Below, piece by piece: positions 8,981 to 37,500 of a stretch of DNA of 64,000 bases. Each line of letters opens with the position of its first letter. The first letter of the stretch is position 1. The stretch is from positions 3,596,001 to 3,660,000 of the forward strand of contig JAYWIR010000005.1 of NCBI GenBank assembly GCA_036172245.1, read 5' to 3'. Source of the DNA: Raillietiella orientalis. Its lineage: Eukaryota. The position numbers and the translations under genes were made by a program. Below the pieces are notes generated by a model, which saw only the letters and a list, made by a program, of their open reading frames with translations, was not told the origin of the DNA and did not search any database.

Positions 8981-8984
<4 letters not shown>

Positions 8985-12881: not shown

Positions 12882-14750
12882 TCTGGTATCCACGATCTTC
12901 TCACGACGCGATGGTAACGAAAGCTAAGGAAGGAAAACTGCAGTTACAGAGTGCTGCGGGAACGTTTACCAAGCACGCGCGTACTTACGGTCCACGGATG
13001 CTTTACCACGGATCTGGCAACGGAGCTGAGGAGACGCCGACGTGGAATCGAGGAAATTCTGCGATGACCAGCACTCTTTCCTGTGATGCAGCAATATTGC
13101 AGGAATGATGTGCGCATTGACCCAGAGGCCTTTAAATCCAGCTGCTCGCCATCCCGGAAGAGTTTCGAATTCCGCTGGATCTTCACGCTTGATGTTTTCG
13201 AGTCCCGTGCACATTTCTCTCCTCGCATCCGCCGACCAGCGTGCCTAAAGGATTCTCGTGCGTGCGTCCCAGTCCGTCCAGAGCCCACTTGAACCCAAGG
13301 TCAAAGCAGTAGTTCACGCAGCATCCGCAGTGCACTGGATTAATTTCGTGTTACTCGCAAAGAAGCTGCGTTAGATGTATAAGGTTCTAAGGCATGCCCC
13401 GCTGCATTTGTTCTGAGCAGCCGCAGAGATAAACTATCAGAATGCAATGTCATGTTACGTGAATAGAGGTTACTTTGATCTGGGATGATATTTTAGAAGA
13501 GCTACGGAAGAACTGAGTTGAATATACGAGAAACCATTATGCATGGACCTTAGGACACTCCACATCCAACAAGCTGCTTCTTGAGTCTAGTGAAAAATTA
13601 ATCCAATGTTTACTAGGCGTTCATCCTGCTTCTCCTTTCCATGACTATCCTGTATCCTTGGGAACTACACAGTGCACTGCGGATGCTGCGTGAACTACCG
13701 CTTTGACCTTGTGTTCAAGTGAGCTCTGGACGGACTGGGATGCACGCACGAGAATCCTTTAGGCACGCTGGCCGGCGGATGCGAGGAGAGAAATGTGCAC
13801 GGAACTCGAAAACATCAAGCGTGAAGATCCAGCGGAATTCGAAACTCTTCCGGGATGGCGAGCAGCTGGATTTAAAGGCCTCTGGGCCAATGCGCACATC
13901 ATTCCTGCAATATTGCTACATCACAGGAAAGAGTGCTGGTCATCGCAGAATTTCCTCGATTCCACGTCGGTGTCTCCTCAGCTCCGTTGCCAGATCCGTG
14001 GTAAAGCATCCGTGGACCGTGAGTACGCGCGTACTTGGTGGGCGTTCCCGCAGCACTCTGTAACTGCAGTTTTCCTTCCTTAGCTTTCGTAAACATCGCG
14101 TCGTGAGAAGATCGTGGATACCAGAATGTTGCAACGCAATGTTTGTGCGCTTCTGCTGGGAATGTTCGTTCTGAACTGCAGTAAGTAGGGGCAATCGGAG
14201 TGAAGGGTGACCGTGCGGTGTGCGCTTGCTTGACCTCATTTTCCGCCTTGAAGAAGCAACACTTTTGTGTATCAGCGGGAAGTTTTTCCGAAGGTGCTCG
14301 AAGGAACTTCCGTCGGGGCAGCATCCGTTGCGTCTTTCTGAGTGCTGGAAACGGCGGCATGTGCGGAAAAGGAATAGGAAATTCCTAGTCGATGCGGAAA
14401 TGCCCCATCCAGCATTCGTCGGGAGCACGCAAATTTGTGACCTGTTGCCGTGGGGATCGAGTGCGACGCGACCCTAGTTCGTGAACCTTGGCGCGAAGGC
14501 GAGCCACAAGCGAGTGAGTGATTTGCTGCACTTTCAGTCCTGACCACGAAGCGCGTCAGCTGCCAATACGATCCCGATGAAAGCGACATTGAATGGAAAC
14601 TTAGTCATAGGTGAGGTGCGCCAAGCGGATTTCTCCTGCTGGTTTGCCGAATATTCTTCTCATGAAGGAGCTGTTGTTCTGGAAACCCTTCCATTTAAGG
14701 CGAGCAGCACACTTGGACGGGTAAACTCCAGTGTGCACTCGAGATAGAGA
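12257..14750. repeat. Long inverted repeat (arms ~12257-13337 and ~13670-14750, spacer ~330 bp) carrying peptide copies 2 and 3 head-to-head
   Basis: GCATCCGCAGTGCACTG (13321-13337) is the reverse complement of CAGTGCACTGCGGATGC (13670-13686), and the ORFs are mirrored on the two strands. Confidence 0.93.
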
Positions 14751-15101
14751 AACACAGATGTTGGCGCACAGATCTTAGGAATAGGGACTTTGCTTTTCTG
14801 AAAGCTTTTCTGTCCTGAAGGCTGTGCTTTGTCATGAGGGTTTGGTACGCCATCGTCAGCTTGTGAGGTTTCACGTTCTCGTTGGGCTTTCTTGGAATCC
14901 GTGTTCTTGATTGGTGAATTGCATATTATCTCATTGGAACCGTTCTTTTATAGAAGTAATCGTAATGGACCGATGTATGAGCTCCCAAGGAAGCAGAATG
15001 TGGAGATGAACACTCCAAAAGAAAAGGTGTTTTACATCCCTTGTTCGAAAAATTCCGAATGCGCTACTCAAATATGTTACCTCAATAAATGCGTAACCTG
15101 A
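14126..15101 (+). CDS. Secreted cysteine-rich prepro-peptide, copy 3 (91 aa); exons 14126-14180, 14538-14610, 14954-15101
   Basis: Product MLQRNVCALLLGMFVLNCILTTKRVSCQYDPDESDIEWKLSHRSNRNGPMYELPRKQNVEMNTPKEKVFYIPCSKNSECATQICYLNKCVT*. AATAAA at 15111-15116. Confidence 0.85.
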
Positions 15102-15788
15102 GGTCCTATGAATAAACTGCCTCGCTTTGGAAGATTCTCGTTTTGCTCATTTTGAGGAATGGAAATTTGTACCAGTAGATCTGGGGTTTTCCAAATAAAT
15201 GCCAGAAACCCCAAAGTGCCTTTCTGATAATTTAGGCTGATTTTTCTTTGTTCCAGGTAATTCTTATGTGAGGTCTTCGGCCCACATGTAAAGCTTCATA
15301 GCCAATGCAGGAATCATCGGGTGAATTCCAGCCTGGAATTACCTTCTTCTCCGCACGGGCTTGCGGGGTTTTTTGGTGGCAACCTGTGACCTCATTTCCT
15401 CTTTTCTTTGCTTGTGAATGCTGCATTTTCTCAGATCGTCCGGTGCCCCGTTACTCGAATTGTCTCGACCTCCTGCATAAATCTGAAGGAAAATGCGCCC
15501 GGCACTCGTAGTCCAAGGATTGTGGTGCCGGAGGCACGCAGATGCCTGCGAAGGCACCCCCTCGTCAAGACACCGGCTTCCCGTTTGCGGCTGTTGTGCT
15601 TCCTTATCCCGTCGCAAGCGAATGCGCTACATCCATCTTGGCTGCTGTCCCTCACATTGCCCAGTCGTGGGGCAGCTGGCTGCGATGCACAGAAGACACT
15701 GAAGTCTCATCTACCGGAGGAAACAGGCAGCTCAGCCAGTAGGCTTGGTGACTAAGCTCCGAGTAGGCCGCCGTGGTCGCATCCGTTT

Positions 15789-18700
15789 TGTTCCACAAGA
15801 TTCCCGTATGGAATCGAGTGTTTGCCCTGTTCTTAGGCAATCGGATGCCATCCCCGGGGATTCGGGGAAGGGGTCCGTAACGAAAGGGCGTATTTATATG
15901 CCCGTCGTTACGCGAGGACCCCTAATGTCCGTCGCCTGGCAGAGTACCGAGCAGGGGCCGAACGTCAAGCCTGGCAATCCGGGTCGGCCAGCTTGCTGGA
16001 CGATCAGGGCCGGGAGCACTCGGCCCCGGCTAGGATGCGGCACCTCGTGCGGTGTTATTATTCCTCCCTTTATGCCAGGGCGCCCCCGGACCAAGATGCC
16101 TCTCGGCGCTTGCTTCCGGATGGTGCCCCGGTAATAGGGGAGGAGGAGAAGGAAAGCCTCGACGAGCCTTTTACCACCGGCGAAATTCTCGCCAGTATCA
16201 AAAGGTTCAAGAAGCGGAAAGCACCAGGGGAGGACGGCCTGCCCGAGGAGTTTTTTCAAGGCTTCGCGGCAGAGTTGGCACCCCTGGTGCTTCAGTTGAC
16301 AAGGCTGATCCGAGACGCAGGTGATGTTCCCGCCTCGTTTCGGTCAGCCAGAGTGAGGCTCCTCCCGGAAGAAGGTGACCTCAGGAAACTCAGCAACTGG
16401 CGTTTGATCACAATTGTGAATACGGACGCCAAGCTGATCGCCGGACTGTGGGCTTCGCGTCTGGGGCAGGTGGCCAATTCCGTAATTCGCCCGGAGCAGA
16501 CTTACGCTGTTCCCGGGCGAAGTATGGAGGCCAACCTCTTCTTCGCGAGCACATGGTTTCATGTGCAGAGTAGTGAAGAAAAGGAAGAGGGAATGATTGG
16601 CAGCCCCGCTTTGGGGGCGTCAGCAGGGCAGGGACAGGACTCCCAGGTGGAGAAGGGGACCCTAGCCATCGCAGTCGATCTGCATAAAGCGTTCGACTGC
16701 GTGGACCAGGATCTCCTGCTGGAGCTCCTGGGACGCATGGGCTTCCCTCCCTTCCTACTGACATATTTGCGCTCTTGCTGGCGCAGCGCGCTAATTAATA
16801 TCTCTTTCAGAGGTCAAATGGCGTACGGCGTGCCGGTACGGCGGGGCATACGGCAGGGCGACAGCCTCAGTCCCCTGCTCTTTAGCACCTACTTTGAGTT
16901 GGTGCTGAGAGCGTACAGGGTGACTTTGGCCCCTTGCCGAGCTCGTGCCCTCGCACGCCCGCCGTAGCAGCGTATACCGACGATCTTCTGCTCCTGTTGC
17001 CGATGTCCACCCCGGCGAAGGCGGTCGGGGATTTCTTCGATCTGCTTAGCCGCGGGATTGGACTGCAGGTTAACAGGACGAGTAGTCGGTCGGTGGTGCC
17101 AGTTGGTACGGCGTGGGCTGGGCAGCAGGACTGGGTCCGTTTGGGGATCCCCACGGCGAGGTGCTTGAAGTACCTTGGTGTGCCGTTGGGGGACTATTCC
17201 CTTTCGGATGCGTGGTTCGGCTGCCTCCAAAAAGTGGAAACGGCGATCGGCCCGTTCCTGGAAGACAAGTTTCTCCTTCCGGAACGGGCCGCGGTGTGGA
17301 ACGTTCGCGGCTCCCATCCTCCGCCCCCTGCTTTTTGTTTGCCCGTCCCCCGGGAGTTAAAGAAACGGACGAAGGACCTCCTGAGAATTGCCCTTTGGGT
17401 AAGAGGGAGGCCCCGAGTCCCGTTGAAGGACTTGTGTGCTCCACGTCGGGATGGCAGTCTCGGTCTCTTGACGTTGGAGCGAGTAGAGATACAGCTGCGA
17501 TGGTGCACCCTGGCCATCGCAGCGATGTTATGGAGCACCCCATGATGCGTTTAGGCCCGACTCCTTGCCAGCCGTGTATCCTTGACGGAGGGTCTCGCGT
17601 CTTATCTTCTGTGCCGTGGCTCGAAGATCAAGAGATGCGGACTTCTCCTGGGACGCATGGCAACTCTGGCTAAGGAAAACGGCTGGATGGTATGCAGCCC
17701 CGCCAACTCCTCCGCATGGCTGGAGGAGACAGCTGGCACGTGGGCGAAGATCAATGAGAAGAATGAAGAGATGTGGAACTGCCTGCGACGCGGCGCCTAT
17801 TTCCGCTGCACTCTGCGGAAGATACTCCAGTGTCCCGCGGGAAGCACGTGGGCAGAGACAACCCCCCTAGCTACGGCGATGCCTTTCTTGAGGAGGGCGC
17901 TCTCCAGCAGCCGCAAGCCTAGGTGGCAAGTCTCCTGCTGTATCGCAGGCAAGGAGAAGCTGATGAGCGGCTGGTCCATGAGGGAACTGGCAGACGCCAC
18001 GACCCGAAGTGTCCTTTCGCGAGGATTAGTGAAATGGGGCGAGCTGCTCGGCATCCAGCCGGATGACCTGAAGTGGCCCCCGGTATTCATTGGTTCGAGG
18101 ATCCTCCCCCTGAAGTGGCAGGAGTCGGCGCTTCTGTTGTTGCATTGGGGCCTGCCCTGCAACGCACGTCGCCACCACTGGACCAGGGGTCGAGTGAATC
18201 CCGACTGCATCAGGTGTGGGGAGCGGGAATCCCTCCCCCACCTTCTTGTTGATTGTGCTGCCCTCCGACCCCTGTGGGAACGTCTTCGTGTCTCCCTACG
18301 GATCCAGGAGGGCAGCCAGCCCAGAGACGTTTTTCGGCTTCTGTTCGTGCAGGATGCCCTGCGACCATTTGCTGCCCTGGATGCACTTTGCTGCGTCCGT
18401 GGGATCGTGACGTGCTGGAGCGACGTGAGAAGACCGAGCCACGACAGGGATGCCGTCGAACTTGCAGTCCGCTACCTGCGGATTGCGACCAGATGGCCCC
18501 ACCTGGGAATTATACTGACGGACCTCGAGGGCATCCTGCAAAGGATGGACCCTCCTCCCAGTGGTCAGTGATCCCTCCCCAACCCTCCAAAATCTTATGT
18601 TTATGTTTTTATTAATTTTATGTTTTATTTTTCTGTTTGTTTTTTCCCCCACCCCCTTCCGCTGCCGAGGAGAGTCGCGCCGGTTTGCGTACCGGCAACC

Positions 18701-18790
18701 CGGCAGGTCCTGTTGAGTTGGCCGTAGTGGGGCCTCGTACCACGAATTGTAGATAATTTCTAATAAACTCCCCGGCGTGACCGGGTGGCA
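15789..18790 (+). mobile_element. 5'-truncated, frameshifted non-LTR retrotransposon (element C): RT, zinc finger and 3' UTR
   Basis: ORFs 15993..16967, 16934..17545 and 17582..18571 together match element A (KAPGEDG, GIRQGDSLSP, AYTDD, CIRCGERESLPHLLVDC). Terminus AATAAACTCCCCGGCGTGACCGGGTGGCA at 18762-18790. Confidence 0.92.
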
Positions 18791-20259
18791 ACGATCGGAT
18801 GCCATTTGAATTGGACTGTCGTTTTTTTCTTTTGGAAACCTTGGGAAGTGCAATGTGGGGAAGGCTCCTTGTGTTAGACTTGCAACGTTTTGTTTGTGTT
18901 TCTCACAAACTGGGGATCGCATGCCTACTGTCCTATTCTTCATTTGGGACTGGGAGAAGCGAATCACATTTTAGGATAGGGCAATCCGCCTTTCTTCGTT
19001 ACCTACGTAACTTTCAGTAGAGAGAAGGAGGGCGAAGGCTCCGGTACCCAAAAAAAATTTCCGTCATCAAGAGTGCTCACGGCGAAAGCCATCATAAAGT
19101 GTCGCTTATACACCGCAGCCTTGCTTCAGAGAAAGGAGGCGAGCCACGCGCAGGCGCCACATTGTTTTTAAATGTAACCGCGCTTTCCCTCTTCTTTCTT
19201 ACTGGCGCCCGCAACTATGCGTTTTCTGGAGCTTGGGTTTTACGCTCTCGTTGCAGCCGTTATGTTGCTCCCTTCTTGTTTCAGATCTCCACGGCGGCGG
19301 ACTAAATTTGCGTGCGATAGACAGCGGCCGCCGAGAGCCGCAGACGCTGGCTGATGGCGGACGGCGAGCAGCGCAGCTCGTGCACTTTTCAGACTCGGTC
19401 CAACGCACCCGTGGTCGGACCAGGAGCCCAAACTGCGCACGGAATTGTCGAAAATGAAGCTCGTGTGAATGGGCACATGTAGACGCAGGGAAGTGCACGC
19501 TGGCGGTCTGGCGCTGGAGAATTGACAGTGAGATACCCTCTCACAGGAGTCGGAAGGCTCGGGGAGAATGATACTACCCATGAAGGAATCATCGACAGCG
19601 GCGGCGGAAGCTTGGAACTACCATCTTGAAAACCGTGTACAAGAGTTGTCAGCATTCGGAATTAGTAAACTCTTCTGCTGGTCGTTTTCAAGAGGGCAGC
19701 AATATTTAAAGGAGAGCAAGAAAGGGGCGTCAGGAGATACGCAGACGGAGGAAACATGGACCGGCTTAACGGTGAGGAATAAGATGACAGGTTCAGGAAG
19801 TAAGCAACTCCACAAGTGTGAGCGGACCGCATCCTATCTCAAAAGTTTTTTGTCGTGGATCGCTCAACTCGGGAATCAGCTGCAATGAGTGCGTGGGCAC
19901 CTCCTGCAAATGCTTGAGGTAGGTATTTCTCAGAGACTCCGTAACCGCGCGTCTTTTGGCATCTTCCTGTAGGTTGTTGATGTCGCACGCTCATCCGCGG
20001 ATCGAACGCACAGAGGCTTAATCCTTTCATTCTGCCTGCCAAGGAATCGGTCTTCCCGCTTTCCCAATTATCGTTCGGGCTCATGAGGAGTAGCCAAAGT
20101 TTCATCTTTCAGAGAATCGGGAAAGCTGACTTCAAAATGCTTTCTTTAGCTTCTATCGGAGAGGCTCATCTTCCCCAACGTTTCCCCACTGCAAACCGCT
20201 CCGTCCCTGCGAGAGTCGAGAGGTATCTCGCCGGGAGACTGCACACCATTTCCTCGCGC

Positions 20260-21060
20260 CGTCTCATCTCATCTTGGAGTCCAGCGACGCTTTTTGGAGC
20301 CACAGGGACCAAGGATCACCTTTTTTGCGGTGCTGCTTCTCTTTGCAAGAATCAGCTCTGAACATATTGTGCCAAAAGAGAGCGGTTATAATGGTCACCT
20401 TATTGGCCTCCCAACTGCTTTCTTCTCTGGTCGTCATCTGAACTACCGGGGTCTGTGCAATCATTGCGTTTGTCCCCGTTCCCTTCTCGGACGGTAGTGT
20501 TTCCGGAGGGCTTTCGACTACCGAGTTACCAAGCGTTTTGCCTGAAGCGGACGCACTTTCCTCAAATCTTTCGATCCGAGGGATGCATTTGTGGCTGTCG
20601 ATGGAATCCTCAGCTTGTGGAACTTTCTGCTTGCAAAAATTTTTCTTGTCTCCGTCTGTTTTCCGGGGAGGAATCGTTTCTGTCCGCGTTTTTCCATTGG
20701 GAAAGCCTGGCATGTGACCTGCACGTGTCCGCTCTGACTACAGCAATTGTACCTGATGTTCAAGCAATCCTCTTTCAGGTGTCCCGTGGCCTTCCAAAGC
20801 CCACAGACTTTGGGGATCAGACTCTTGCCACATATCGGCGCTTTCGTTGTCCACGCGTACTTCGCGATGAAGCGCCGGATCATTTGTCACTCGTGTGAGC
20901 TTTGCATTGGGCGCACTCGACGCTTTGCAAAAGCAGCGCCCGGATATCCTGATCCACCTTTTTGCGAGCCGTTTCGTGGTTGACAAGCAGGAAATTACCA
21001 GGCCAACAGGACACCGCACCGTCCTACAGGACTCTAGGTTGCCTTCTCTCTGTATCGCCA
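20260..21060 (-). pseudogene. Decayed ORF1 (zinc knuckles) of the same retroelement group
   Basis: KVCGLWKATGHLKEDCLNIRYNCCSQSGHVQVTC compares with RYCGYCDAVGHLRKRCPNIECHLCGVKGHVRRVC in element B. Confidence 0.7.
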
Positions 21061-21299
21061 CCCGTACTCACAGCTCCATTGCTTTTACTATCATGTTTCT
21101 AGTATGAGGTGGAAGAGCTGCTTCTTTCTCATACTACTTCGCGCTTGCACTTGGGAGACCTTGCCTTACCTGGGTGTTTTTCGTTAATCCTCACACTCTA
21201 CAAACTTTAATTGGCGCATAACCATCGAGACTGGGCCATTCCAACCGTCTCTCGCCTGCAACTGAACGCAGCGGTAGGGTAAACACGGATGTCAGTCCT

Positions 21300-21830
21300 T
21301 CGGTGCTTTTGCGGGATGACCACAGTCGTAGTTCTTCCTCTCTCATATTTACTTACCGGCAGACTAGCGCGAAGAGCTCCTCAGTCGAAGCACCGAAACT
21401 GGAAGTGGACAGCACGACAAGAGAGAACGTCGTCTGCGTAGGCTTTCAAGAACGGCGTGCAAACGCAGAAGCCCCGAAGCTGGCCAGCATCAGTATGTTC
21501 ATCTTCATCACCACTTCGAAGATTGGGAAGCGCACAGGACAAAAGCTGTCGCCTTATCTGATGCCCTGTATGGCCACCGGAACGCCGTAGAGGTAACTGT
21601 CGCGCAAAGAGATACAAATTATCAAGTTGCATCAGCAGGAGCTTTAGTAGAAGAGCACTTGAGAACCAGGCACTTCAGGAGATCCAAGTGATCATAGTTG
21701 GCATAACTAACGTATTTGTGCAGGTCGACTGTGACCACCAATGCACCAGACGTTTCCAGCCTTTTCTGTATCTCCAGCGTTGAGAAGCGCTGCTCTACGG
21801 CCGTCTCGCGCAAGACGCGATTCATTAGAT
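21300..21830 (-). pseudogene. Decayed RT core fragment
   Basis: GALVVTVDLHK and KAYADDVL in broken frames. Confidence 0.72.
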
Positions 21831-22199
21831 TTGCATCCTGTAACACCGAAGCGTTTATTTAACAAAAATTAAATAAACTTACGTAATAAACTCAGTAATG
21901 ATAATCCACGTGGAATTTACCTTTTTGGTGTTTGCTTATCGTTGATTTGATTATTTAAGAGTAATTAATTTTCTTAATAAGGAGTAATTAAAAGTTTTCA
22001 TCAAGATGCAGCACGAAAAGGAATATTAGTAGATACGTATCAGCTACGATATTTCAAGTTTGGATGTATACATGTAATTTAATATTGAAATAGGATTTAA
22101 TTGTAAATTTATTTGAGAAAGGTAGATTGAATGTAATAATCGTTGAATACAAATCGTCCAAGATGCGAAAGCAACCGTCGAGACGGAGATTTCTCTATA

Positions 22200-23010
22200 A
22201 GAAGACCTAAAGAAGATCAAGTGGAGGGTTCACGGACACGCCCGACTTGATTTCTGAACGTCCGGAGCAAGGGGGCAAAGAACAAACACAAAAATAAATT
22301 GAGGGGCAAGGGTAGGATTTTTGGCTTCTCCCGTTCCTTCATGAAACACCTGGAAAAGTCCGGAACGGACGGAAGTGGGTAGTAAACAATTACATTAAAA
22401 GGAGGGCGGTTCAAGGGTCACTGGTAATGTCTGTTCCTTTCTTTCAGAAGCGGGGCAGAATATCGGCGATCTCCTTCTTGACTTCCACGTCCAGGTAAGG
22501 CCACCTGGCAGCCGTCCTCATGTAGACAATTGCGATGCTGGAGGCCTCTTCTCGTTGCGTCCGAGACTCCGGCAAATGACAGGCTGCAACGATGGCACGA
22601 ATGCAACATGTCGTCGCCATCACGACGCCTGTCGCGGTTCCACTTCTCGAGAAGAAACGCCGCAGCAAGGCCGTCGCTGTGTCTTCGGTGTGCGCAGGAG
22701 TGCTGAGTTCAGCATACGCCAAAGTTCCTGGAGGCCAACAAAAGGTGCGGGAACGCTTCCATCGCCCCGCACTTCAAACAGTTCGGGACACAACAGCCCC
22801 TGAAATCCGGTTCCTATGTTGGTTGCACTGGAAACCACAGTGCAGAAACAGCAGGACGTCCTGTTTCGGTTTCAGCGGGAACACGGAAGCGTTTATACAT
22901 AGGGGAGAGACAACAAGTTTGCCGGAGGCCTCTCTGATCAGCTTGTCCCATCGGAGCAGTCCCTTCGCCCTATGACGTGGAGTGGTGGGGTTCACCAACT
23001 CATCGCCTTC
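22200..23010 (-). mobile_element. Decayed 3' end of an element-A-like retrotransposon
   Basis: TPRHRAKGLLRW, ASVFPLKPKQDVLLFLHCGFQCNQ and CCIRAI align with the C-terminus of element A. Confidence 0.8.
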
Positions 23011-27900: not shown

Positions 27901-28707
27901 ACTTATATATATTAGTACATATACACACTTTTATGCAAATATATATATATAAATACATTTCTTATCTTTCGTTTTTGTTTACTCGCTCCCCTTCTTTTGC
28001 CTCTGCGTACATCTTTCGAGAAGCAGCCAGCGAGAAGCAGAATCTCCGAAATTCCCATCCTACTAAGAACTCTCAAAAAGCAGACAGTCGTCGTTCAGCA
28101 CCTGAGTAGTAAACAAAGCACTCTTCTTGCATTCGAAGAACTAGAAAAACGTTCGTGAAGACAAAAGTGCTAAAAGCCTTCGAAGAGTTGCCAAATTGCT
28201 TAAAAGGGGAAAACCTCGAGAGTGGACAGCACACAGCGACGCACACTCAAGCGGAGAAAAACACCAACGGAGATCAGTGCAGCCTCCAGGAGCAACATAA
28301 TTCATGATACACCAACGCTGGCAACCCACATACGGCAATTTCCTTGATGTCGAAGGAAACCACAACTTCCGGATCATTTCAGTCCATCTCTTCCAAAGAT
28401 GAGCACGCTGCCTGCATGCTTCAGTCAGAACACGGCAAATCCATGTTCTCCAACCGTGGAGGAAACCCTCCGGAGATTCAATGTAACTTACGATTTCCAC
28501 AACAGCAATAAGGCAGCAGCCGTTGCCATGGAAGAGGAGCGGAGCTAAAACTTGCTAGAACGAAGATACCTCGAAAGTGTGAGAAAGGTTATTCCGCATG
28601 CGTTTCTCCGATAGAGCGATTCGCTGTTCCACGAGTACAACCCTTTGCCCTTCACAATAAACAGAACACAAAACCGAAGAAACGAACAATGCTTTATTGA
28701 CAAAACC

Positions 28708-29666
28708 TCAGAACCTACATTCGCCGTAAACACAGTGTCCCTCTGGGCAATCAGAATCGCTTGTACAAACCGCAGTCCTTTGTACTTTCTTTCCATTTAT
28801 CTCTTGAGATACCTTTATAGGTCCATTACGAGGACTCCTGCAAGAAGAAAGTTCGAATGACAAGAAATGACAAGCATCTCACGGATCGACATTGCAAATT
28901 TGAAGACATGCTTCGAGAAAGCGGAGAATGACAAGCAGGTGAATCGAAAGAAACCCTTAGGGAAGAGGAAACCCTTCAGGACAGGAAAGTCCTCAGATAA
29001 GAAAAGTCCATAGTCCCAAGAGAATCCGGGAGCCCACAGATCCTGTAGCTCGAGTGCACACTAGACTTCACTCGTCCAAGTGTGCAGCTCGCCTGAAGTG
29101 CCAGGTTATTCATAACAACAGTTCCTTCCATGAGGACATACGCAGGAAACAAGCAGGTGAGGTCCGCTTTGAGTAGCTCACCTATCAGTGGATTTCCATT
29201 TAATGTCGTTTCCATCGGGATCGTATTGGCAGCTGACGTGCTTCGTGGTCAGGACTGAAAGTGCAGCAAATCACTCACTCGCTTGTGGCTCGCCTTCGCG
29301 CCAAGGTTCACGAACTAGGGTCGCGTCGCACTCGATCCCCACGGCAACAGGTCACAAATTTGCGTGCTCCCGACGAATGCTGGATGGGGCATTTCCGGAT
29401 CGACTAGGAATTCCCTATTCCTTTTCCGCACATGCCGCCGTTTCCAGCACTCAGAAAGACGCAACGGATGCTGCCCCGACGGAAGTTCCTTCGAGCACCT
29501 TCGGAAAAACTTCCCGCTGATACACAAAAGTGTTGCTTCTTCAAGGCGGAAAATGAGGTCAAGCAAGCGCACACCGCACGGTCACCCTTCACTCCGATTG
29601 CCCCTACTTACTGCAGTTCAGAACGAACATTCCCAGCAGAAGCGCACAAATATTGCGTTGCAACAT
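28708..29666 (-). CDS. Secreted cysteine-rich prepro-peptide, copy 4 (85 aa); exons 29666-29612, 29254-29182, 28837-28708
   Basis: Product MLQRNICALLLGMFVLNCILTTKHVSCQYDPDGNDIKWKSTDRSPRNGPIKVSQEINGKKVQRTAVCTSDSDCPEGHCVYGECRF*. AATAAA about 10 nt after the stop. Confidence 0.85.
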
Positions 29667-30740
29667 TCTGGTATCCACGATCTTCTCACGACGCGATGGT
29701 AACGAAAGCTAAGGAAGGAAAACTGCAGTTACAGAGTGCTGCGGGAACGCCCACCAAGTACGCGCGTACTCACGGTCCACGGATGCTTTACCACGGATCT
29801 GGCAACGGAGCTGAGGAGACACCGACGTGGAATCGAGGAAATTCTGCGATGACCAGCACTCTTTCCTGTGATGTAGCAATATTGCAGGAATGATGTGCGC
29901 ATTGGCCCAGAGGCCTTTAAATCCAGCTGCTCGCCATCCCGGAAGAGTTTCGAATTCCGCTGGATTTTCACGCTTGATGTTTTCGAGTCCCGTGCACATT
30001 TCTCTCCTCGCATCCGCCGGCCAGCGTGCCTAAAGGATTCTCGTGCGTGCATCCCACTTCTTGAGTAGCTCTCCTGGAATTTTACACCCGGGCATGCCGG
30101 GGCGTTAATTTAAGGAAAATAATTCAATTTGCATCTGAGTTTTTAGTCGAACACTAAATAACTTGAAGGGAAGAAGAGCCCACCGACTGTCCGGTGAGCG
30201 CAACTCTTAGCGGGGGACGAAAACGAAGGGACAAGAAACGAAGGAAGCGATGGGGACAGGGATTGACGTTGCTTGCCGTTTCTTTTTTTCCGAACAGGCT
30301 CTGTACATTGGCTTTACTGGTGCTTGTAGGCGTGTTCACCTTGCGGCCTCCCCCAAGTAGGAGGCTGCCATCGCCACGGACTCTCTCGTCTTCGCGTCTG
30401 GGGCGTCCGGAGCACACGGAGCACCGTGACGGCCACGCGGATGGAACACTTTGTCGCGATCAGTGTGCCGAGACCAGTGTCGAGAGTGCGTCGTGCACGA
30501 AGCTTCGGGGAAACAGCTCACGGGCAGCGTGCTGCTGGTGCGGGAGCGCTCATGCCAGGCAGCACCACGTTCAACGGGGGGCACTGCAGTACAAAAGAGG
30601 GTGCAAGACCGGTGCCACCTACCCACATACGGCGCAGTACAGGAATGCGACCCTTCTGGAAACAAGGTGGAGTCACCGATTCCATTGCTATCCCCGGTGC
30701 AGAAACTGCAGAACATCCTGCCTCCAGCTTGAAGGAAATA
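28813..30740 (-). repeat. Inverted duplication of ~1.9 kb; partner ~38750-40665 (+)
   Basis: Mirror-image ORFs (29432..29893 vs 39585..40046; 30154..30417 vs 39061..39324). Identity ends 25 nt into peptide exon 3. Confidence 0.93.
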
Positions 30741-33105
30741 TATGGCTACCTCGATGGAAGAAAACTTCATTCTTTTTCCGTAAAGAAGGCAGAAATGTGC
30801 GGGAATCACAAATGTCCAAAAGATTCTTGCTCGCTCGAAATGGACTACAACTATGGTCCGGTCAAGCGAATCGACCGACCCCTCTCTGCAGCAAGAAACA
30901 TTGGTGACCCAGACTAACGTTCCGGGGGACATCTGTGGTCCGATACTTAGCACAGCAACCCGAAGGGAAATTCGATAAGCCGAAATCGCGATGGCGAGCA
31001 TCAGTGCGGAGCTCCTGGAAGAATTCCGTATTCCCTTGTCCAACCACGCGAGCCGAAGCGCAGAAATCCAAGGCAATCCATGAGGTCGGAAAAAGGAGGT
31101 TCCGCTTTCTTGCTCTTTGTCAGAAAGCTGGATGCACTGGATGAACAGCAACGGCATCTTCCTGCAGCCCCTCAGGGCGTGCTTAGCGGAAATCACTTGG
31201 ATGTTTCTGCATTTTTCAACGGAAATCAAGGCGCACGGCGACAAGTTCGGGGCACCTCCGTCCCAGGGCACGGGTCAAGCGAGCGCGCTTTGTGCACGCA
31301 TGGGGAGCGACAGTGGTCCGTTCGCCTGCATTGGGAAGGAACCTTGTGTCAAAGAAAGGGAACTCGGTTGCTGAAACAAGTCCAGTTTGACGGCTCACAA
31401 GTGCGACACCAACGTCGTCCACGTGACGGGAGATGCCCGTTCGATCGCCGCGTGTGCGCCCTCGACATGATGACCACGAGGGGAATCGCATCGAGAGCAC
31501 CTTTTATCTCGGCTCTGGAGATTGATGAAGCAGTCCTTTCGTCTCTGGTGCTGGAAATCGAAAAGCAACTGGATCGTCCCTTGAACGCCAAAGGTTCGAA
31601 GCGTGCGCAAGTGCAATCCTGGACACGTTTGACGGCTCGAACACGACCGGGATGCCCAAGGCAACGTGGCATCAATGAGCAGTTTGCCGCAAGCCCCAGC
31701 TCCAATCCTGACATCGGAACTCAAATCCGAAAGCGTAGGCGGCTGCGCCACCTACGCTTTCGGATTTTCTTCTACCTTTGTCGCCTGGCGTTATGGGCAT
31801 CGGCAGTGCGTTGCATCGGCACCCCCTGAGCAGTGCACCCGCGGTCAGCTGACTCGGTGCTGCAAGACGGAGAGCGCCACCGGAATCGCTCCATAGCGAG
31901 GTGTAGAGATCTGACGTTCCTGCAAGCAAAATATGGAACTGACCATTGACTTCCGTTGTTCGAGAATGTGGAACGGGCCTGCAGCTTGTTGAGGGTCTTT
32001 CGAAAGAAATTTGGCCGCATTTTCACACCTTGGATCGTGTGATGCTTTTTCATGTTCGGTATGATAAAATGTAACACGTTGGTGTTGCAACTTTCGTGGT
32101 TACTGGGGTTGATAAAGCGAGAGCTGCAAACTTCTTTGTGGCTCTATTGAGGCTTTTGAAATGTTCGTTCCTGTAGCATGGAGCATCGTCCAGGGTACAC
32201 CGGGTCACCTTTGCAATGATGCGGAGAAAGGCGATCTTTTGTAAGTGAGCGCATTGGCTTCTGTGCTGCCACCGTTGGATGCAATTTGCACACTTCTTTA
32301 AATTTGCTGTTTTTCCTAATATTCGATTTTGCCGCAGATCATATATCAGCTGGAGACTCCTGATAGCTGTGTTTTTATCTTGCTATATTTTTGCTGCTGC
32401 TGCTCTGAGAACAAAGAAAACGATGTAAACTTGAAGTCAGTCATTCCTGAGTTTGAGACTCAAGTAATTAGAATTAGGAGGCGAATGTGAACCAGGCATA
32501 TATTGCATTCGTTTTCTATTTGTGTATGCTGTTTTGTTTGGAACTCCAGAATACAGTCCGGAGGTTGCATGAATCGCAGTGGGTGCTCTGCGGCTGTGAT
32601 TAGGAGTGATATTTCAGCCGGTCTGCTCAAGTACTGGATTTCGCACATGAGCAACTACTGAGCCTGCCGTTTGCCGATGCTTTAAGTGAACTGTTTACGA
32701 AACTCGTGGTCATCTTGCTTGAAGATCAAGTGGGAGGCATAACTCCTGTGCGATTGCAGGCAGCGCGATCTTTGTGACGCATTCTACTGTGCTAATGAGT
32801 TTTTTTCAGATTGTGAATTGGAAGGTGGTAACAGTGCCAATGATCCTGGTTGGGTATCGCAGAGAGTGGAGATTATGATTTATCTTTGCCTGTTTGAGCC
32901 ATAGTATGTAAAACACGGGTCATCGCAGAATTTTCTCGATTCCACGTCTGCGTCTCCTTACCTCCGTTGCCAGATCCGTGGTAAAGCATCCGTGGACCGT
33001 GAGTACGCGCGTACTTGGTGGGCGTTCCCGCAGCACTCTGTAACTGCAGTTTTCCTTCCTTAGCTTTCGTTACCATCGCGTCGTGAGAAGATCGTGGATA
33101 CCAGA

Positions 33106-34064
33106 ATGTTGCAACGCCATGTTTGTGCGCTTCTGCTCGGAATGTTTGTTCTGAACTGCCGTAAGTAGAGGCAATCGGAGTGAAGGGTGACCGTGCGGTG
33201 TGCGCTTGCTTGACCTCATTTTCCGCCTTGAAGAAGGAACACTTTTGTGTATCAGCGGGAAGTTTTTCCGAAGGTGCTCGAAGGAACTTCCGTCGGGGCA
33301 GCATCCGTTGCGTCTTTCTGAGTGCTGGAAACGGCGGCATGTGCGGAAAAGGAATAGGAAATTCCTAGTCGATGCGGAAATGCCCCATCCAGCATTCGTC
33401 GCGAGCACGCAAATTTGTGACCTGTTGCCGTGGGAATCGAGTGCGACGCGACCCTAGTTCGTGAACTTTGGCGCGAAGGCGAGCCACGAGCGAGTGAGTG
33501 ATTTGCTGCACTTTCAGTCCTGACCACGAAGCGCGTCAGCTGCCAAGACGATCCCGAGGAAGGCGACATTAAATGGAAACGCACTAATAGGTGAGCAGCA
33601 GAGGACGCATTTCGACTGCTTCTCCTCCGCGTATCTCCTTATGGAAGGAACTGTTCTGGAATCCTTAGCATTGAAGTCGAGTTGCACACTTGGACGGGTA
33701 AACTCCCGCGTGCACTGGAAGCAAGGAATTTGTTGTCTCGCGGATCTTCCTAGGGATTGGGACTTTGCTTTCATAATGGCTCTCTTCTTTCTTTCCTATT
33801 AGGATATCAGTTGCATCATGGAAATACAACTTTGCTCCTTCTGATTGTTTTCGCGAGAAACACGTGATGTGGTTCCGTGAACTACTTTCTGAATGTTTGA
33901 ATCTGTCTTATTCCAGCGATGATCGAGAAGACTTGATCAAATTGTGCCCGAAGAAAGAAGTTCCGTATCAAAATTTTGTAAAAAACAAGATTGTTTTGGT
34001 GGAATGTTTGGAGGATTCCGATTGCGAATTCGGAAGATGCTGCGACTTTTTATGCGTGAAGTAA
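33106..34064 (+). CDS. Secreted cysteine-rich prepro-peptide, copy 5 (91 aa, six Cys in exon 3); exons 33106-33160, 33518-33590, 33917-34064
   Basis: Product MLQRHVCALLLGMFVLNCLLTTKRVSCQDDPEEGDIKWKRTNSDDREDLIKLCPKKEVPYQNFVKNKIVLVECLEDSDCEFGRCCDFLCVK*. The shared upstream block is truncated at ~32918. Confidence 0.82.
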
Positions 34065-34327
34065 AGAGCTGTAATGAAACTGGCTCGTCTTGGAAGATTC
34101 TCGTTCTGCTCATTTTGAGGAATGGAAATTCGTACCAGTAGATCTGGGGTTTTCCAAATAAATGCCAGAAACTCCAAAGTGCCTTTCTGATAATTTAGGC
34201 TGATTTTTCTTTGTTCCAGGTAATTCTTATGTGAGGTCTCCGGCCCACATGTAAAGCCTTATAGCCAATGCAGGAATCATCGGGTGAATTCCAGCCTGGA
34301 ATTAGCTTCTTCTCCGCACGGGCTTGT

Positions 34328-34534
34328 ATCACCCGGGTGCGCCGGGGCGTTTATTAAAAACTATCCGGGAACAGAGTTCCTGGACAAAGGGAAAAACAAG
34401 AGACGAAGGGGGTGGGATCCCCGACACGCAGGTCGGTATGCCGAAAGTCCGGAACGGGAGGGAGGGGACCACAAATACACTACTATAAAAAATAAAAAGA
34501 AACTGGCTCGTGGGGTTAAAAAGAAACTACCTGG
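34328..34534 (-). mobile_element. 207-bp insertion of the element-A-type 3' UTR, flanked by a 15-16 bp target-site duplication
   Basis: CTCCGCACGGGCTTGT at 34312-34327 and 34535-34550. The paralogous empty site at ~15349-15363 has a single copy. Most of the insert matches 2500-2660 in reverse. Confidence 0.93.
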
Positions 34535-37500
34535 CTCCGCACGGGCTTGTGGGGTTTTTGGGTGGCAACCTGTGACCTCATTTCCTCTTTTCTTTGCTTG
34601 TGAATGCTGCATTTTCTCAGATCGTCCGGTGCCCCGTTACTCGAATTTTCTCGACCTCCTGCATAAATCTGAAGGAAAATGCGCCCGGCACTCGTAGTCC
34701 AAGGATTGTGGTGCCGGAGGCACGCAGGTGCCTGCGAAGGCACCCCCTCGTCAAGACACCGGCTTCCCGTTTGCGGCTGTTGTGCTTCCTTATCCCGTCG
34801 CAAGCGAATGCGCTACATCCATCTTGGCTGCTGTCCCTCACATTGCCCAGTCGTGGGGCAGCTGGCTGCGATGCACAGAAGACACTGAAGTCTCATCTAC
34901 CGGAGGAAACAGGCAGCTCAGCCAGTAGGCTTGGTGACCAAGCTCCGAGTAGGCCGCCGTGGTCGCATCCGTTTCAGTCCACAGGCGCACCGATGTCCTT
35001 CTGTCGGACGATCCTATGACTGCATAGGATACACTTGTTGTTTCTCAGGGATTTGTGTTCCGAGCCTGTTGTCGAAATCTGGTTTCCGGCCGAATGGGCT
35101 CTGGCTAAGAATATCTCCTGAAACGGCCAACGCAAACCTTCTGAAGATGGCAAAATCTCGAAAAATAATTGCTCAGCACAAAAGGAATGCATATGTCTTC
35201 CCTACGGAAATTTTACGGTGGAGTAGAAAATATGAAGGACAAATGGAATAATTTTTAATATTTGAAATGAATATTAAAGTTGACATTGTCGATGTTTAAA
35301 CGCAAAAAAATTTGGGATTGGAAAGCCGCAAATGCATTGAAAAAGCTCCTCGACAACGGAATGGAAGGACTCTTCCCTCTCTCTGTTGAGAAGAAGGAGC
35401 ATGCCGGGTCTTTCTGTTCGGGAAACTTCCGCAAGGAAGAGCCACTTCCGCACATTGACAAAAGTGACTTATCGTTGCGATTGCATGCGTGTCTATACTG
35501 CAGTCTACTAGCTCTGACAATGCAAAGCCACAGGTATCATTTCGTGTCAGAGCACTTCCATCCGGCACAGCTCCCATCTTGGAAGTGTGCTGCTTCCCCT
35601 TGAGCATCCGTTAATATCAGAGGGAAAAAAAACCGTAGTCTGTTGCTAACTTCCAGCTTCCGTGGCCCGTACCAAAGCCACCGACCTCATCAGGCAAACA
35701 CCGGTTTCCAGGATGCTCGCCTGGATGCGAAATACAGCGTAGAGGCGGCGATCACCTTGGCTAGCGTTGCACTGACCACATTTTCAGCGGTTAACTAGAA
35801 TTTCTGATAGCAGCGTCATTTTTTTGAAGCTAGAAAGCCAATTGCTTTCTATTCTTGCATGCGGCTCTCAACTCCACATCAAGCAATTGGCATAGTTGCC
35901 TACTCTAGGCTATTTCCACGACCCTTGCTTTCTTCTCCATGTTCCATTGCAGCACGTCTGCAATGGAACATGACTCTTAAATAGCAGTCTTAGATAATCG
36001 AAACCGTCGCCCAAAGTAAAGCTTCTTTGATACCAAGGCAACCCTTAGGAGGTAAAAAAAACAGCGAGAAACACCTTGCTCCAAGATTGTCACGTGAGAA
36101 AGCGATGCCTCTCAATTAGAATGCATACTCTCTATCCTCTCACTCGATAGATCAAGGAACAGTACCATGGGTACTTTTCCCTGATGAAGAGACAAACCAT
36201 GTAAAACCACCCGGTCCCTGCTTGTAGAAAAAGCACTTTCTGAACGAAGAGAGCGCATAAGCCGCAAGCAAGCAGCAAGAAAAGCGCCGTCGTTCGCCAC
36301 CAGCATCATGACCTCGACAACTTCTGGACTGGTTCGCACGTGCCCGAGGAAGTCTGGAAAGCGACCTTCCAGAAGGCTTGCGAGAAGGAAACAGCTCCCA
36401 GAGCACGCGCACATCCATCAGTGACAACCTCTGGACGAGCTTACACAAATCTCTTTTGGAGGAGATATCTCGCCAGTTGCCCCAGCTCTAAGAAAAGCGT
36501 CAACGGATGATGTTCTCATTCGAGATTTCATGCCTTCTGTTGATAGAACTGCAGCATCTCTGGCATCAGCCATCCCTTTTGCACTTCCGATCCTCCGACG
36601 CTAATAATGCTGAAAACAACCTTGGACAACAAATTCGCGCCTATTCCTGGAAATCAAGGGTTTCCTGCTGACGTTCCAGGAAACATCTTTCCATATCCTG
36701 GAGCGGAGCTTAAGCGGAGCTTCGTTCCAAGCACAATGGGAACGCGTGTGCATCCCAGGCACCAAGTTTAGGGGTCCCACGTAGTTTGCTCGCTGCGTCG
36801 TCCAGCGAGAGACGGCATACGAAGTTCCCTTGGAGCCTCCAGAGAGTGATCCATCTTCGGCATCATCGGAAAGCCGTTTCCTGTAAAGGTGCAGAGCGAA
36901 GGGTCGTTAGGAACCTCGACTCGCACGAGGAAGAAATCACTTCTAAGAAAAAAATTTCCAGCCACGGATCGATCGCGCAGCTTCTCGTTTCCGTAGTGGC
37001 AACGAAGTATTCCGTTCGACCTGAGGAGCCTGGAAACAGTGAGTGAAACTGTCGATGAAAACTGAAAAGGAAAAACGCGCGTCGGTTCGTGGGCATCGAG
37101 AAATCTCCGAACAGGTGGACGCTTGCTCGCGCATCCTTCAGTGAGCAGAGATGAAGCATCGCTGAGCACAGAGGTCAGTGGCAACCATTCGAAAGAAGCA
37201 CACGAGGAATCCGATGACCACACTCGGAGCAGAAGGAAAATTACGGGAAGCAACTCCGCAGCGAGTAGGGAGAGTGCAGGAATCGGGACTGCCTTCGCTA
37301 TAATATGCTGGCACTCACGTGGATTGCCCTTTTCATCACGTCTCATTCAGAAGCTTCTCCTGGATCGTTCACACTGAGAAATTCGATCTCGCCGGTGCTC
37401 ATGCAGAGTTTGCTCGATTGCTGGGGCTGCCGCAACGAGTGCAAACCAATCACGCCGTGCAATGTTCCGTCTCGCGGGAGGGCACTGCTTGGGCAGCATC

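What the first reader, a model, noticed from the sequence alone, without database searches (positions are those of the whole stretch)
14538..34975. Coding exon 3 is far more diverged than the non-coding DNA on both sides (copies 3 and 5)
Seen: copies 3 and 5 have a nearly identical intron 1 and a nearly identical ~670 bp downstream flank (15121-15788 vs 34084-34975, ignoring one insertion). Exon 3 has the same length in both (148 nt), yet only 12 of 48 residues match, 4 of them Cys. Intron 2 is also diverged. Inference: either strong diversifying selection on the peptide, or gene conversion that homogenises the flanks around a protected variable cassette.
Basis: partly seen in the sequence, partly recalled or inferred. 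Interest (0 to 1): 0.8.

Follow-up and report, generated by a model that had tools for sequence, protein, structure and literature searches.

The report
Variable peptide exon, homogenised gene flanks
Six neighbouring copies of a small secreted cysteine-peptide gene keep nearly identical front halves and introns through DNA copying between copies, while the last exon, which encodes the mature peptide, differs in almost every copy, as in known toxin and defence-peptide families.

Summary
Copies 3 and 5 differ at 6 of 357 intron-1 bases and 14 of 650 downstream-flank bases, but at 72 of 144 exon-3 coding bases (12 of 48 residues identical, 4 of them Cys). The diverged block is not only coding. 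It runs about 14741-15123 and includes 213 nt of intron 2 and about 22 nt after the stop, all at the identity of shuffled sequence.

The window holds six intact three-exon genes for 85-95 aa prepropeptides: signal exon, pro exon, then an exon carrying an RxxR site and a C-x5-C-x4-C-x4-C peptide. No database relatives were found.

Positive selection is not shown. Omega is about 1 (pairwise 1.03 and 1.09; ML 0.83, omega=1 not rejected). Synonymous divergence in exon 3 is as high as non-synonymous, and far above the flanks.

Gene conversion or recombination is shown directly. In copies 1, 6 and 4, 36 informative sites group 6 with 4. Then come 838 nt with one difference. From the ninth codon of exon 3, 154 sites group 6 with 1.

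Best reading: a conversion-homogenised prepro module and flanks around old, unconverted mature-peptide cassettes. This is a new example of a known kind. The organism is unidentified and there is no expression evidence.

The parts
6871..7829 (+). Copy 1 gene: exon 1 at 6871-6925, exon 2 at 7283-7355, exon 3 at 7700-7829 (85 aa)
   Evidence: GT-AG introns of 357 and 344 nt and an intact ORF. AATAAA lies 12 nt after the stop.
11899..12881 (-). Copy 2 gene: exon 1 at 12881-12827, exon 2 at 12469-12397, exon 3 at 12058-11899 (95 aa)
   Evidence: It lies head-to-head with copy 3. The inverted arms 12256-13337 and 13670-14751 are 96.8% identical, with a 332-nt spacer.
14126..15101 (+). Copy 3 gene: exon 1 at 14126-14180, exon 2 at 14538-14610, exon 3 at 14954-15101 (91 aa)
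   Evidence: Exon 3 of copy 3 finds only itself among the six copies by blastn-short.
28708..29666 (-). Copy 4 gene: exon 1 at 29666-29612, exon 2 at 29254-29182, exon 3 at 28837-28708 (85 aa)
33106..34064 (+). Copy 5 gene: exon 1 at 33106-33160, exon 2 at 33518-33590, exon 3 at 33917-34064 (91 aa, six Cys in exon 3)
   Evidence: Homology to the other copies starts only 188 nt before the ATG. AATGAA replaces AATAAA, and the P4 Arg of the RxxR site is missing.
39812..40770 (+). Copy 6 gene: exon 1 at 39812-39866, exon 2 at 40224-40296, exon 3 at 40641-40770. Its exon 3 is identical to that of copy 1.
   Evidence: It lies in a 5.5-kb duplication (6030-11549 vs 38970-44492, 99.2%).
14741..15123 (+). 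Diverged island of copy 3 relative to copy 5: the 3' 213 nt of intron 2, exon 3, and 22 nt after the stop. The copy 5 counterpart is 33718-34086.
   Evidence: identity 0.587, 0.566 and 0.636, which is the level of shuffled sequence. In one search, windows starting at 14826, 14866 and 14946-15026 found no hit in any other copy; 14906 gave 35 of 80 to copies 1/4/6 and 15066 gave 28 of 80 to copy 5.
15124..15797 (+). 3' flank shared only by copies 3 and 5 (copy 5: 34087-34983, interrupted at 34327-34534)
   Evidence: JC 0.041 and 0.012. It occurs nowhere else in the window.
6887..7724 (+). Tract identical in copies 1, 4 and 6, running from exon 1 to the eighth codon of exon 3. Counterparts are 29650-28813 in copy 4 and 39828-40665 in copy 6.
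   Evidence: one singleton in 838 nt; 1 mismatch in 854 nt between copies 1 and 4.
7725..7889 (+). Diverged island of copies 1/6 relative to copy 4: 34 mature-peptide codons, the stop, and about 60 nt. The copy 4 counterpart is 28812-28651.
   Evidence: 50 of 102 coding nt differ and 9 of 34 residues are identical. The stop to +60 segment is 72% identical. The 3' flank beyond it is 88% identical.
38974..39827 (+). 5' segment of copy 6 that matches copy 4 rather than its duplication partner, copy 1 (a conversion or recombination tract)
   Evidence: 36 of 36 informative sites have copy 6 = copy 4 and different from copy 1; copies 1 and 6 differ at 7 positions (5 substitutions and a 2-nt indel) across the remaining 4663 nt. 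Fisher p = 4e-23.
34327..34534 (-). 5'-truncated LINE 3'-end fragment inserted in the copy 5 flank, with a 15-16 nt target-site duplication
   Evidence: 90% identity to 2487-2661, inverted; the duplicated target lies at about 34313-34327 and 34535-34549 and occurs once in copy 3 (15349-15363).

Best explanation
This is a cluster of six paralogous genes. Each encodes a secreted prepropeptide: exon 1 carries the signal peptide, exon 2 a pro-region, and exon 3 an RxxR processing site followed by a 39-49 aa peptide with a C-x5-C-x4-C-x4-C core. The family evolves as a mosaic. Frequent non-allelic gene conversion or recombination keeps the promoter, exon 1, intron 1 and exon 2 module 97-100% alike in all copies, with intron 1 the most similar part. 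It also homogenises some 3' flanks. The segment encoding the mature peptide has diverged to near saturation and is left unconverted. Conversion tracts end at its edges, either because the heterology blocks them or because overwritten copies are selected against. Exon 3 therefore looks far more diverged than its surroundings because the surroundings are young (recently copied) and the cassette is old. Point mutations were not selectively accumulated in the time recorded by the flanks. Shown here: the gene models, the divergence profile, omega of about 1, and the recombinant ancestry. Inferred: secretion and processing, the direction of each conversion event, any role of selection in protecting the cassette, and the function. 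The function is probably a diversified toxin-, defence- or signalling-type peptide.
For: Six intact models with canonical splice sites. Intron 1 is 357 nt in all six. Intron 1 is 97-100% identical in all 15 pairs. Exon 3 is 41-62% identical in the 14 pairs other than 1-6. R, K and four Cys are invariant in the five distinct exon 3 peptides.

Three-way mosaic of copies 1, 6 and 4: 36 sites group 6 with 4, then 838 nt carry one singleton, then 154 sites group 6 with 1. The chance of complete separation is 2e-39. Differences between copies 1 and 6 number 36 in 854 nt against 7 in 4663 nt. Partitions are incompatible, for example copies 1 and 2 against the rest at 14021-14041, versus copies 1, 4 and 6 against 2, 3 and 5 from 14553. 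Copy 3 is painted as 4/6-like, then 2-like, then unmatched, then 5-like.

Synonymous divergence in exon 3 far exceeds the flanking non-coding divergence. For copies 3 and 5 it is 13 of 27 against 14 of 650 (p = 3e-13). For copies 1 and 4 it is 10 of 22 against 1 of 854 (p = 1e-16) and against 67 of 555 (p = 2e-4). Omega is not different from 1. In copies 3 and 5 the diverged block includes 213 nt of intron. ML tree length is 8.0 substitutions per codon for exon 3 against 0.53 for exons 1-2.
Against: No RNA or protein evidence exists for any copy; no sequencing run was listed and no genome is held. The donors and directions of the conversions are not identified. In two independent pairs the island edges sit at or near the limits of the mature-peptide coding sequence: codon 9 of exon 3 in copies 1/4, and about 22 nt after the stop in copies 3/5. 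That is also what cassette import or a targeted process would give. The perfect identity of the 838-nt tract could be inflated by assembly polishing of multi-copy sequence. At this level of saturation, omega near 1 cannot exclude episodic positive selection on the loops. With the six invariant columns removed, omega is 1.47, which is not significant (2dlnL 1.45).
Confidence: 0.68

Rival explanations
1. Cassette import. Copies 3/5 and copies 1/4 are recent whole-gene duplicates. In one member of each pair, a short tract of about 165-380 nt covering the mature-peptide region was later overwritten by conversion from a distant family member lying outside this window.
For: The island lengths of about 165 nt (7725-7889) and about 380 nt (14741-15123) are, from general knowledge, in the range of ectopic conversion tracts. 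Both flanks of each island are alike. The 5' edge in copies 1/4 is sharp to the base.
Against: No donor for any cassette exists among the six copies: one search found exactly six cassettes, and one search found no match for copy 3's island. The flanks of one pair have unequal ages (copies 1 and 4: JC 0.042, 0.001 and 0.132), so several events are needed in any case. The 5' side in copies 3/5 decays gradually from exon 2 (JC 0.118, then 0.31, then at least 0.6).
Confidence: 0.17
2. Point-mutational diversifying selection alone. The copies are young duplicates, and positive selection rapidly replaced residues in the mature peptide.
For: Residue identity outside the Cys scaffold is very low (12 of 48 and 9 of 34). 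Omega is 1.47 when invariant columns are removed.
Against: Synonymous sites are as diverged as non-synonymous ones (pS 0.49 against pN 0.50, and 0.46 against 0.50). Differences are spread evenly over codon positions. The adjoining intron and 3' UTR bases are equally diverged. Omega=1 is not rejected.
Confidence: 0.06
3. A targeted mutational process, meaning germline hypermutation or programmed templated exchange, confined to the mature-peptide segment.
For: Both dN and dS are raised only in this segment. There is a sharp switch from 838 identical nt to 49% difference. The passages read from a conotoxin gene study report the same rise of dN and dS from exon 1 to exon 3 (PMC3862624).
Against: There is no mutational signature: the transition to transversion counts are 25:25 and 32:42 in the cassettes against 37:30 in the flank. 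In copies 3/5 the diverged block extends 213 nt into the intron. Recombination, which is demonstrated in the same tract, explains the sharp edges.
Confidence: 0.05
4. Artefact or dead genes. The identical tracts come from assembly or polishing of repeats, or the copies are unexpressed relics.
For: There is no expression evidence. Copy 5 lacks the shared upstream region and the AATAAA signal. Copies 1 and 6 differ at only 7 positions in 4663 nt.
Against: All six ORFs, twelve introns' splice sites, the four-Cys register and the Arg site survive a tree length of 8 substitutions per codon. The contrast between 92-98% and 50% identity is too large to be produced by polishing.
Confidence: 0.04

Closest known systems
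Conotoxin superfamily genes of cone snails (PMC3862624; passages read)
   Same: There are three coding exons that correspond roughly to signal, pro and mature regions. Intron 1 is phase 1 and intron 2 is phase 2; here the exons of 55 and 73 nt give the same phases. The signal sequence and introns are conserved within a superfamily while the mature exon is hypervariable. Both dN and dS rise from exon 1 to exon 3.
   Different: No sequence membership: Conotoxin_I2 scores E 0.033, 14.7 bits against a cutoff of 27, for 1 of 5 peptides. The introns here are about 330-360 nt, against about 0.9-1.4 kb reported for A-superfamily introns. The organism is unidentified. Recombination between copies is shown directly here, whereas that paper calls it rare.
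Mussel CRP-I cysteine-rich peptide genes (PMC10138031; passages read)
   Same: Signal and propeptide are highly conserved and the mature peptide, encoded by the last exon, is extremely diverse. There are three coding exons after a non-coding first exon; here a 5' UTR exon is only suggested by a GTGAGT...TTAG pair upstream of the ATG. The family is taxonomically restricted.
   Different: CRP-I peptides have a six-Cys C-C-CC-C-C knottin array. Here four Cys are conserved, with six only in copy 5. Positive selection is reported for CRP-I but is not demonstrable here.
LEAP-2 (PF07359; PDB 2l1q) and the Dumpy DPY module (PDB 1oig)
   Same: The four Cys of the core align without gaps to residues 14-33 of 2l1q_A, with a shared D-S-[DE]-C motif. 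The AlphaFold model shows a C-terminal beta-hairpin with pLDDT 84.
   Different: All scores are below threshold: LEAP-2 scores 14 bits against a cutoff of 27 and PDB E-values are 0.025-0.069. Matching cysteine-rich stretches (profile positions 26-46) recur in unrelated repeat proteins. The neighbouring CDC16 homologue is only 48-50% identical to vertebrate proteins, so a vertebrate origin is unlikely.

Membership tests
Conotoxin-type prepropeptide gene organisation | Three coding exons corresponding to signal, pro-region and mature peptide | tested here: met
   One search gives the models. The family feature is taken from PMC3862624.
Conotoxin-type prepropeptide gene organisation | Intron 1 in phase 1 and intron 2 in phase 2 | tested here: met
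   Exon 1 is 55 nt and exon 2 is 73 nt in all six copies.
Conotoxin-type prepropeptide gene organisation | Conserved signal and introns, hypervariable mature exon, and dN and dS both rising towards exon 3 | tested here: met
   Tree length is 0.53 against 8.0 substitutions per codon.
Conotoxin-type prepropeptide gene organisation | Sequence match to a conotoxin superfamily | tested here: not met
   only Conotoxin_I2, at 14.7 bits against a cutoff of 27, for 1 of 5 peptides. The one search hits were not full-length family members.
LEAP-2 (PF07359) | Pfam model at or above the gathering score | tested here: not met
   14 bits against 27 for copy 3, and no hit for the other 4 of 5 peptides.
LEAP-2 (PF07359) | Four Cys in the spacing of the solved peptide | tested here: met
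   ungapped alignment to 2l1q_A residues 14-33 with all four Cys in register, at a non-significant E of 0.069.
Dickkopf_N / Dumpy DPY module | Pfam model at or above the gathering score | tested here: not met
   Dickkopf_N scores 17.1 bits against 25 for copy 4 only; 1oig has E 0.025 with one gap.
Mussel CRP-I | Six-Cys C-C-CC-C-C knottin array in the last exon | tested here: not met
   four conserved Cys. Only copy 5 has a CC pair.
Tandem family under concerted evolution by gene conversion | Segments of a copy are closest to different paralogues, with statistically clustered informative sites | tested here: met

The most novel reading that the evidence does not exclude
The mature-peptide segment is diversified by a dedicated process rather than by age alone. 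This could be templated cassette exchange from silent donors elsewhere in the genome, or germline hypermutation confined to the segment between the processing site and the poly(A) signal. Two observations would fit: the base-precise switch from 838 identical nt to 49% difference, and equal divergence at synonymous and non-synonymous sites.
Probability: 0.1. Interest if true: 0.85.

Novelty: new member of a known kind. Interest (0 to 1): 0.42.

Why it matters
How toxin and defence-peptide families keep a constant signal and pro-region, and constant introns, beside a hypervariable mature peptide is an old question. It has been argued for cone-snail toxins in terms of selection, hypermutation or recombination. 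This locus is a compact case where the recombinational part is directly visible. The same 1-kb module is shown to have been copied between paralogues very recently, and the copying stops at the start of the mature-peptide codons. The locus also shows that 'exon more diverged than intron' does not by itself indicate positive selection. The peptide family had no detectable relatives in the searches made, so it may be a lineage-restricted secreted-peptide family worth expression and activity tests.

Tried and rejected
Homology searches
- Word-index search with copy 3 exon 3, longer proteins only: nothing.
- Profile of the five exon 3 peptides against 1.84 billion representatives: 46 hits at E up to 0.001. 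For most, the best stretch covered only the Cys core, about profile positions 26-46. The 7 whose sequences were read and the 13 scanned against Pfam were cysteine-rich repeat or unrelated proteins. None was recognised as a full-length relative.
- Pfam on the 5 peptides: nothing at or above any cutoff.
- PDB sequence search: best E 0.025.
- AlphaFold model, mean pLDDT 67.8, followed by Foldseek against the PDB: no match at E up to 0.001.
- ESM Atlas: best score 0.85, a lead only.
- Paper search for the 18-residue exon 1 peptide: 0 papers.

Wider sequence sources
- Two metagenome DNA pattern scans for exon 1: 0 matches each.
- Sequencing runs: none was listed.
- No whole genome is held for this window.
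- The exon 2 peptide (23 aa) was too short for the word-index search. The open frame around it is only 29 aa, so that route was dropped.
- Earlier findings of the scan: nothing.

Other checks
- Rfam on the whole window: 0 matches.
- Intron 1 folded as RNA: z-score -1.14, so nothing special.
- Antisense ORFs over exon 1 and intron 1: no Pfam family.
- Mutational signature: transition to transversion ratios are similar in the cassettes and the flanks.

An altered genetic code was considered because three CDC16-like ORFs share a frame and are separated by single stops. It was set aside because each stop lies in a short segment that starts with GT, which looks like a small intron (inference only). 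The organism could not be identified. The best named CDC16 matches are arthropods and vertebrates at 48-51% identity.


Full report
WHAT IS THERE

Self-comparison of the window finds a roughly 1.1-kb module six times, in both orientations. Reading copy 3 and mapping its exons gives six intact three-exon genes:
- Copy 1: 6871-7829, plus strand.
- Copy 2: 12881-11899, minus strand.
- Copy 3: 14126-15101, plus strand.
- Copy 4: 29666-28708, minus strand.
- Copy 5: 33106-34064, plus strand.
- Copy 6: 39812-40770, plus strand.

All twelve introns are GT-AG. Exon 1 is 55 nt, intron 1 is 357 nt and exon 2 is 73 nt in every copy. Exon 3 is 130, 148 or 160 nt.

The products are 85-95 aa. They have a hydrophobic N-terminus encoded by exon 1 and a pro-like region with one Cys encoded by exon 2. 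Exon 3 encodes an Arg that is invariant in all five distinct versions. This Arg is part of an RxxR site in 4 of the 5 and is followed by a peptide whose four Cys are spaced C-x5-C-x4-C-x4-C. A six-frame scan finds this cassette exactly six times. No RNA evidence could be obtained. The argument for coding rests on the reading frame, the splice sites, the Arg and the four Cys all surviving about 50% nucleotide divergence.

THE OBSERVATION

- Exon 3 is 148 nt in both copy 3 and copy 5.
- Twelve of 48 residues are identical, four of them Cys.
- Seventy-two of 144 coding bases differ.
- Intron 1 differs at 6 of 357 bases. The downstream flank differs at 9 of 225 and 5 of 425 bases, on either side of one insertion in copy 5.

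The contrast is far beyond chance (Fisher p = 7e-39 and 4e-47). In register, the two exons are still 50% identical against 26% for shuffles, with 0 of 5000 shuffles as high. They are therefore homologous but nearly saturated.

The diverged block is wider than the exon. The Jukes-Cantor (JC) divergence between copies 3 and 5 runs as follows:
- 5' module: 0.038
- Exon 1: 0.076
- Intron 1: 0.017
- Exon 2: 0.118
- First 130 nt of intron 2: 0.31
- Rest of intron 2: at least 0.60
- Exon 3: at least 0.65
- First 22 nt after the stop: 0.50
- 3' flank, two parts: 0.041 and 0.012

The last 213 nt of intron 2 are no more alike than shuffled sequence.

A SECOND AND SHARPER CASE

Copies 1 and 4 differ at 1 of 854 bases from exon 1 through intron 2 and the first eight codons of exon 3. 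They then differ at 50 of the next 102 bases, the 34 mature-peptide codons, where only 9 of 34 residues are identical. The 63 nt from the stop codon onward are 72% identical, and the 3' flank beyond that is 88% identical.

TEST OF POSITIVE SELECTION

Pairwise Nei-Gojobori estimates:
- Copies 3 and 5: pN 0.50, pS 0.49, ratio 1.03 (bootstrap 95% interval 0.63-1.82).
- Copies 1 and 4, 34 codons: pN 0.50, pS 0.46, ratio 1.09 (0.61-2.14).
- Differences are spread evenly over the three codon positions.

A maximum-likelihood codon model (GY+F1X4, IQ-TREE) gives:
- Five distinct exon 3 sequences: omega 0.83, tree length 8.0 substitutions per codon, and omega=1 not rejected (2dlnL 0.51).
- After a post-hoc removal of the six invariant amino-acid columns: omega 1.47, still not significant (2dlnL 1.45).
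- Exons 1-2: omega 1.64, tree length 0.53, also not different from 1.

Synonymous divergence in exon 3 is far above the adjoining non-coding divergence:
- Copies 3 and 5: 13 of 27 against 14 of 650, p = 3e-13.
- Copies 1 and 4: 10 of 22 against 1 of 854 (p = 1e-16) and against 67 of 555 (p = 2e-4).

Selection on amino acids cannot raise synonymous and intronic divergence. The excess divergence is therefore not the product of selected point mutations accumulated since the flanks last shared an ancestor.

DIRECT EVIDENCE FOR CONVERSION OR RECOMBINATION

Copies 1 and 6 lie in a 5.5-kb duplication. Outside its first 860 nt, the two differ at only 7 positions in 4663 nt. Within the first 854 nt they differ at 36 sites (p = 4e-23).

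In a three-way alignment with copy 4:
- All 36 of those sites have copy 6 equal to copy 4.
- The next 838 nt are identical in all three copies, apart from one singleton.
- From base 7725 onward, 154 sites have copy 6 equal to copy 1, with one exception.

The chance of such complete separation is 2e-39. Copy 6 therefore carries a copy-4-type front and a copy-1-type cassette and flank.

Across all six copies the site partitions are mutually incompatible. For example, copies 1 and 2 stand against the rest at 14021-14041, while copies 1, 4 and 6 stand against 2, 3 and 5 from 14553.

Painting copy 3 in 80-nt windows shows four kinds of segment:
- The promoter region is identical to copies 4 and 6.
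- Exon 2 and early intron 2 are closest to copy 2, its inverted neighbour. The inverted arms are 96.8% identical with a 332-nt spacer.
- From about 14826 to 15066 most windows match no other copy; two windows give only weak partial matches (35 and 28 of 80).
- The 3' flank matches only copy 5.

Identity peaks in intron 1 (97-100% in all 15 pairs) and falls away on both sides. This is the pattern expected if conversion is centred there.

MECHANISM

The best-supported reading is concerted evolution of the prepro module and of some flanks around old, highly diverged mature-peptide cassettes. Conversion tracts would stop at the cassette edges.

The window does not tell why they stop. Mismatch-limited tract termination is sufficient on general grounds. 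In two independent pairs, however, the island shrinks to about the mature coding segment. That also fits selection against overwriting distinct peptides.

A variant I cannot exclude is import of short cassettes from family members outside the window. A targeted mutational process is the least supported reading. The cassettes show no transition to transversion signature, and in copies 3 and 5 the block extends into the intron.

One caveat applies. Perfect identity over 838 nt could be exaggerated by polishing of multi-copy sequence in the assembly. The contrast between 92-98% and 50% identity could not be produced that way.

WHAT THE PEPTIDES ARE

No family membership could be established.
- Pfam gives only sub-threshold hits: LEAP-2 at 14 bits against 27, WAP at 17.3 against 20.8, Dickkopf_N at 17.1 against 25, and Conotoxin_I2 at 14.7 against 27.
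- The profile search over 1.84 billion proteins mostly matched other proteins only over the Cys core; those examined were cysteine-rich repeat proteins.
- The four Cys align in register, without gaps, to the solved LEAP-2 peptide. They align with one gap to the Dumpy DPY module. E-values are 0.069 and 0.025.
- The AlphaFold model is confident only for a C-terminal hairpin (pLDDT 84). Foldseek finds nothing significant.

Counting charged residues by eye in the translations, the predicted mature peptides seem to range from acidic to basic. This does not suggest a uniformly cationic antimicrobial family.

In organisation the genes resemble conotoxin superfamily genes. They share three exons for signal, pro and mature regions, intron phases 1 and 2, conserved introns, and dN and dS both rising towards exon 3 (PMC3862624, passages read). 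They also resemble mussel CRP-I genes (PMC10138031, passages read). This is a resemblance in how they work, not membership.

CONTEXT AND ORGANISM

The cluster sits among LINE copies. GC content drops from about 50% to about 35% near 46 kb. A CDC16/APC6 homologue with short introns lies at about 57.1-58.8 kb. Its best named matches are arthropod (cricket and copepod transcriptomes) and vertebrate proteins at 48-51% identity. The best LINE match is 61% identical and comes from an unnamed metagenome protein. The source is a metazoan-like eukaryote from a poorly sampled lineage, and I could not name it.

VERDICT

The pattern belongs to a known kind, conserved prepro region beside a hypervariable mature peptide. 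It occurs here in an apparently orphan family and comes with an unusually clean demonstration of the recombinational component.

Noticed in passing
34327-34534 (compare 2487-2661 and 15349-15363): A 208-nt fragment of the LINE 3' end is inserted in reverse orientation in the flank of copy 5. It is bounded by a 15-16 nt target-site duplication that occurs once in copy 3. The element ends without a poly(A) tail, and the LINE appears to have been active after the copy 3/5 flanks became alike.
   Followed up: partly
1-2661 (+), 3194-4573 (-), 15837-18571 (+): There are two diverged copies of a non-LTR retrotransposon, about 73% identical over 101-1239 vs 16209-17351. Both carry RVT_1 and zf-RVT domains. 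A CCHC zinc-knuckle ORF of 459 codons lies on the opposite strand. The best database relative of the RT is only 61% identical.
   Followed up: partly
13899-14384 (-) and 13940-14473 (-), and the same places in the other five copies: Two overlapping stop-free frames of 161 and 177 codons run antisense across the promoter, exon 1 and intron 1 of every copy. Neither has a Pfam match, and there is too little variation to test for coding.
   Followed up: partly
14181-14537 and counterparts: Intron 1 is exactly 357 nt in all six copies and is more conserved than the coding exons beside it. For copies 3 and 5 the counts are 6 of 357 differences against 8 of 73 in exon 2 (p = 6e-4). The RNA fold z-score is only -1.14 and there is no Rfam match.
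   Followed up: partly
32918-33105 and 34065-34090 (copy 5): Copy 5 lacks the upstream region that the other five copies share, including a TTTAAAG and a CCAAT motif. It has AATGAA where copy 3 has AATAAA, lacks the P4 Arg of the RxxR site, and has two extra Cys. It may be a decaying or differently regulated copy.
   Followed up: partly
57124-58804 (+): These are exons of a CDC16/APC6 homologue (TPR repeats). Three ORFs share one frame and are separated by single stops. The stops appear to lie in introns of about 50 nt, much shorter than the roughly 350-nt introns of the peptide genes.
   Followed up: partly
about 46000: There is a sharp compositional change, from about 47-55% GC in the peptide and LINE cluster to 33-39% GC in the rest of the window.
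   Followed up: no
7697-7705, 14951-14959 and counterparts: Exon 3 has tandem in-frame acceptors (CAGGAG in copies 1, 4 and 6; TAGAAG in copy 3). These could add or drop one residue just before the processing site.
   Followed up: no
14020-14083 and counterparts: A GTGAGT...CCTTAG pair upstream of the ATG suggests a small intron in the 5' UTR and hence a non-coding first exon. This is inferred from sequence only.
   Followed up: no
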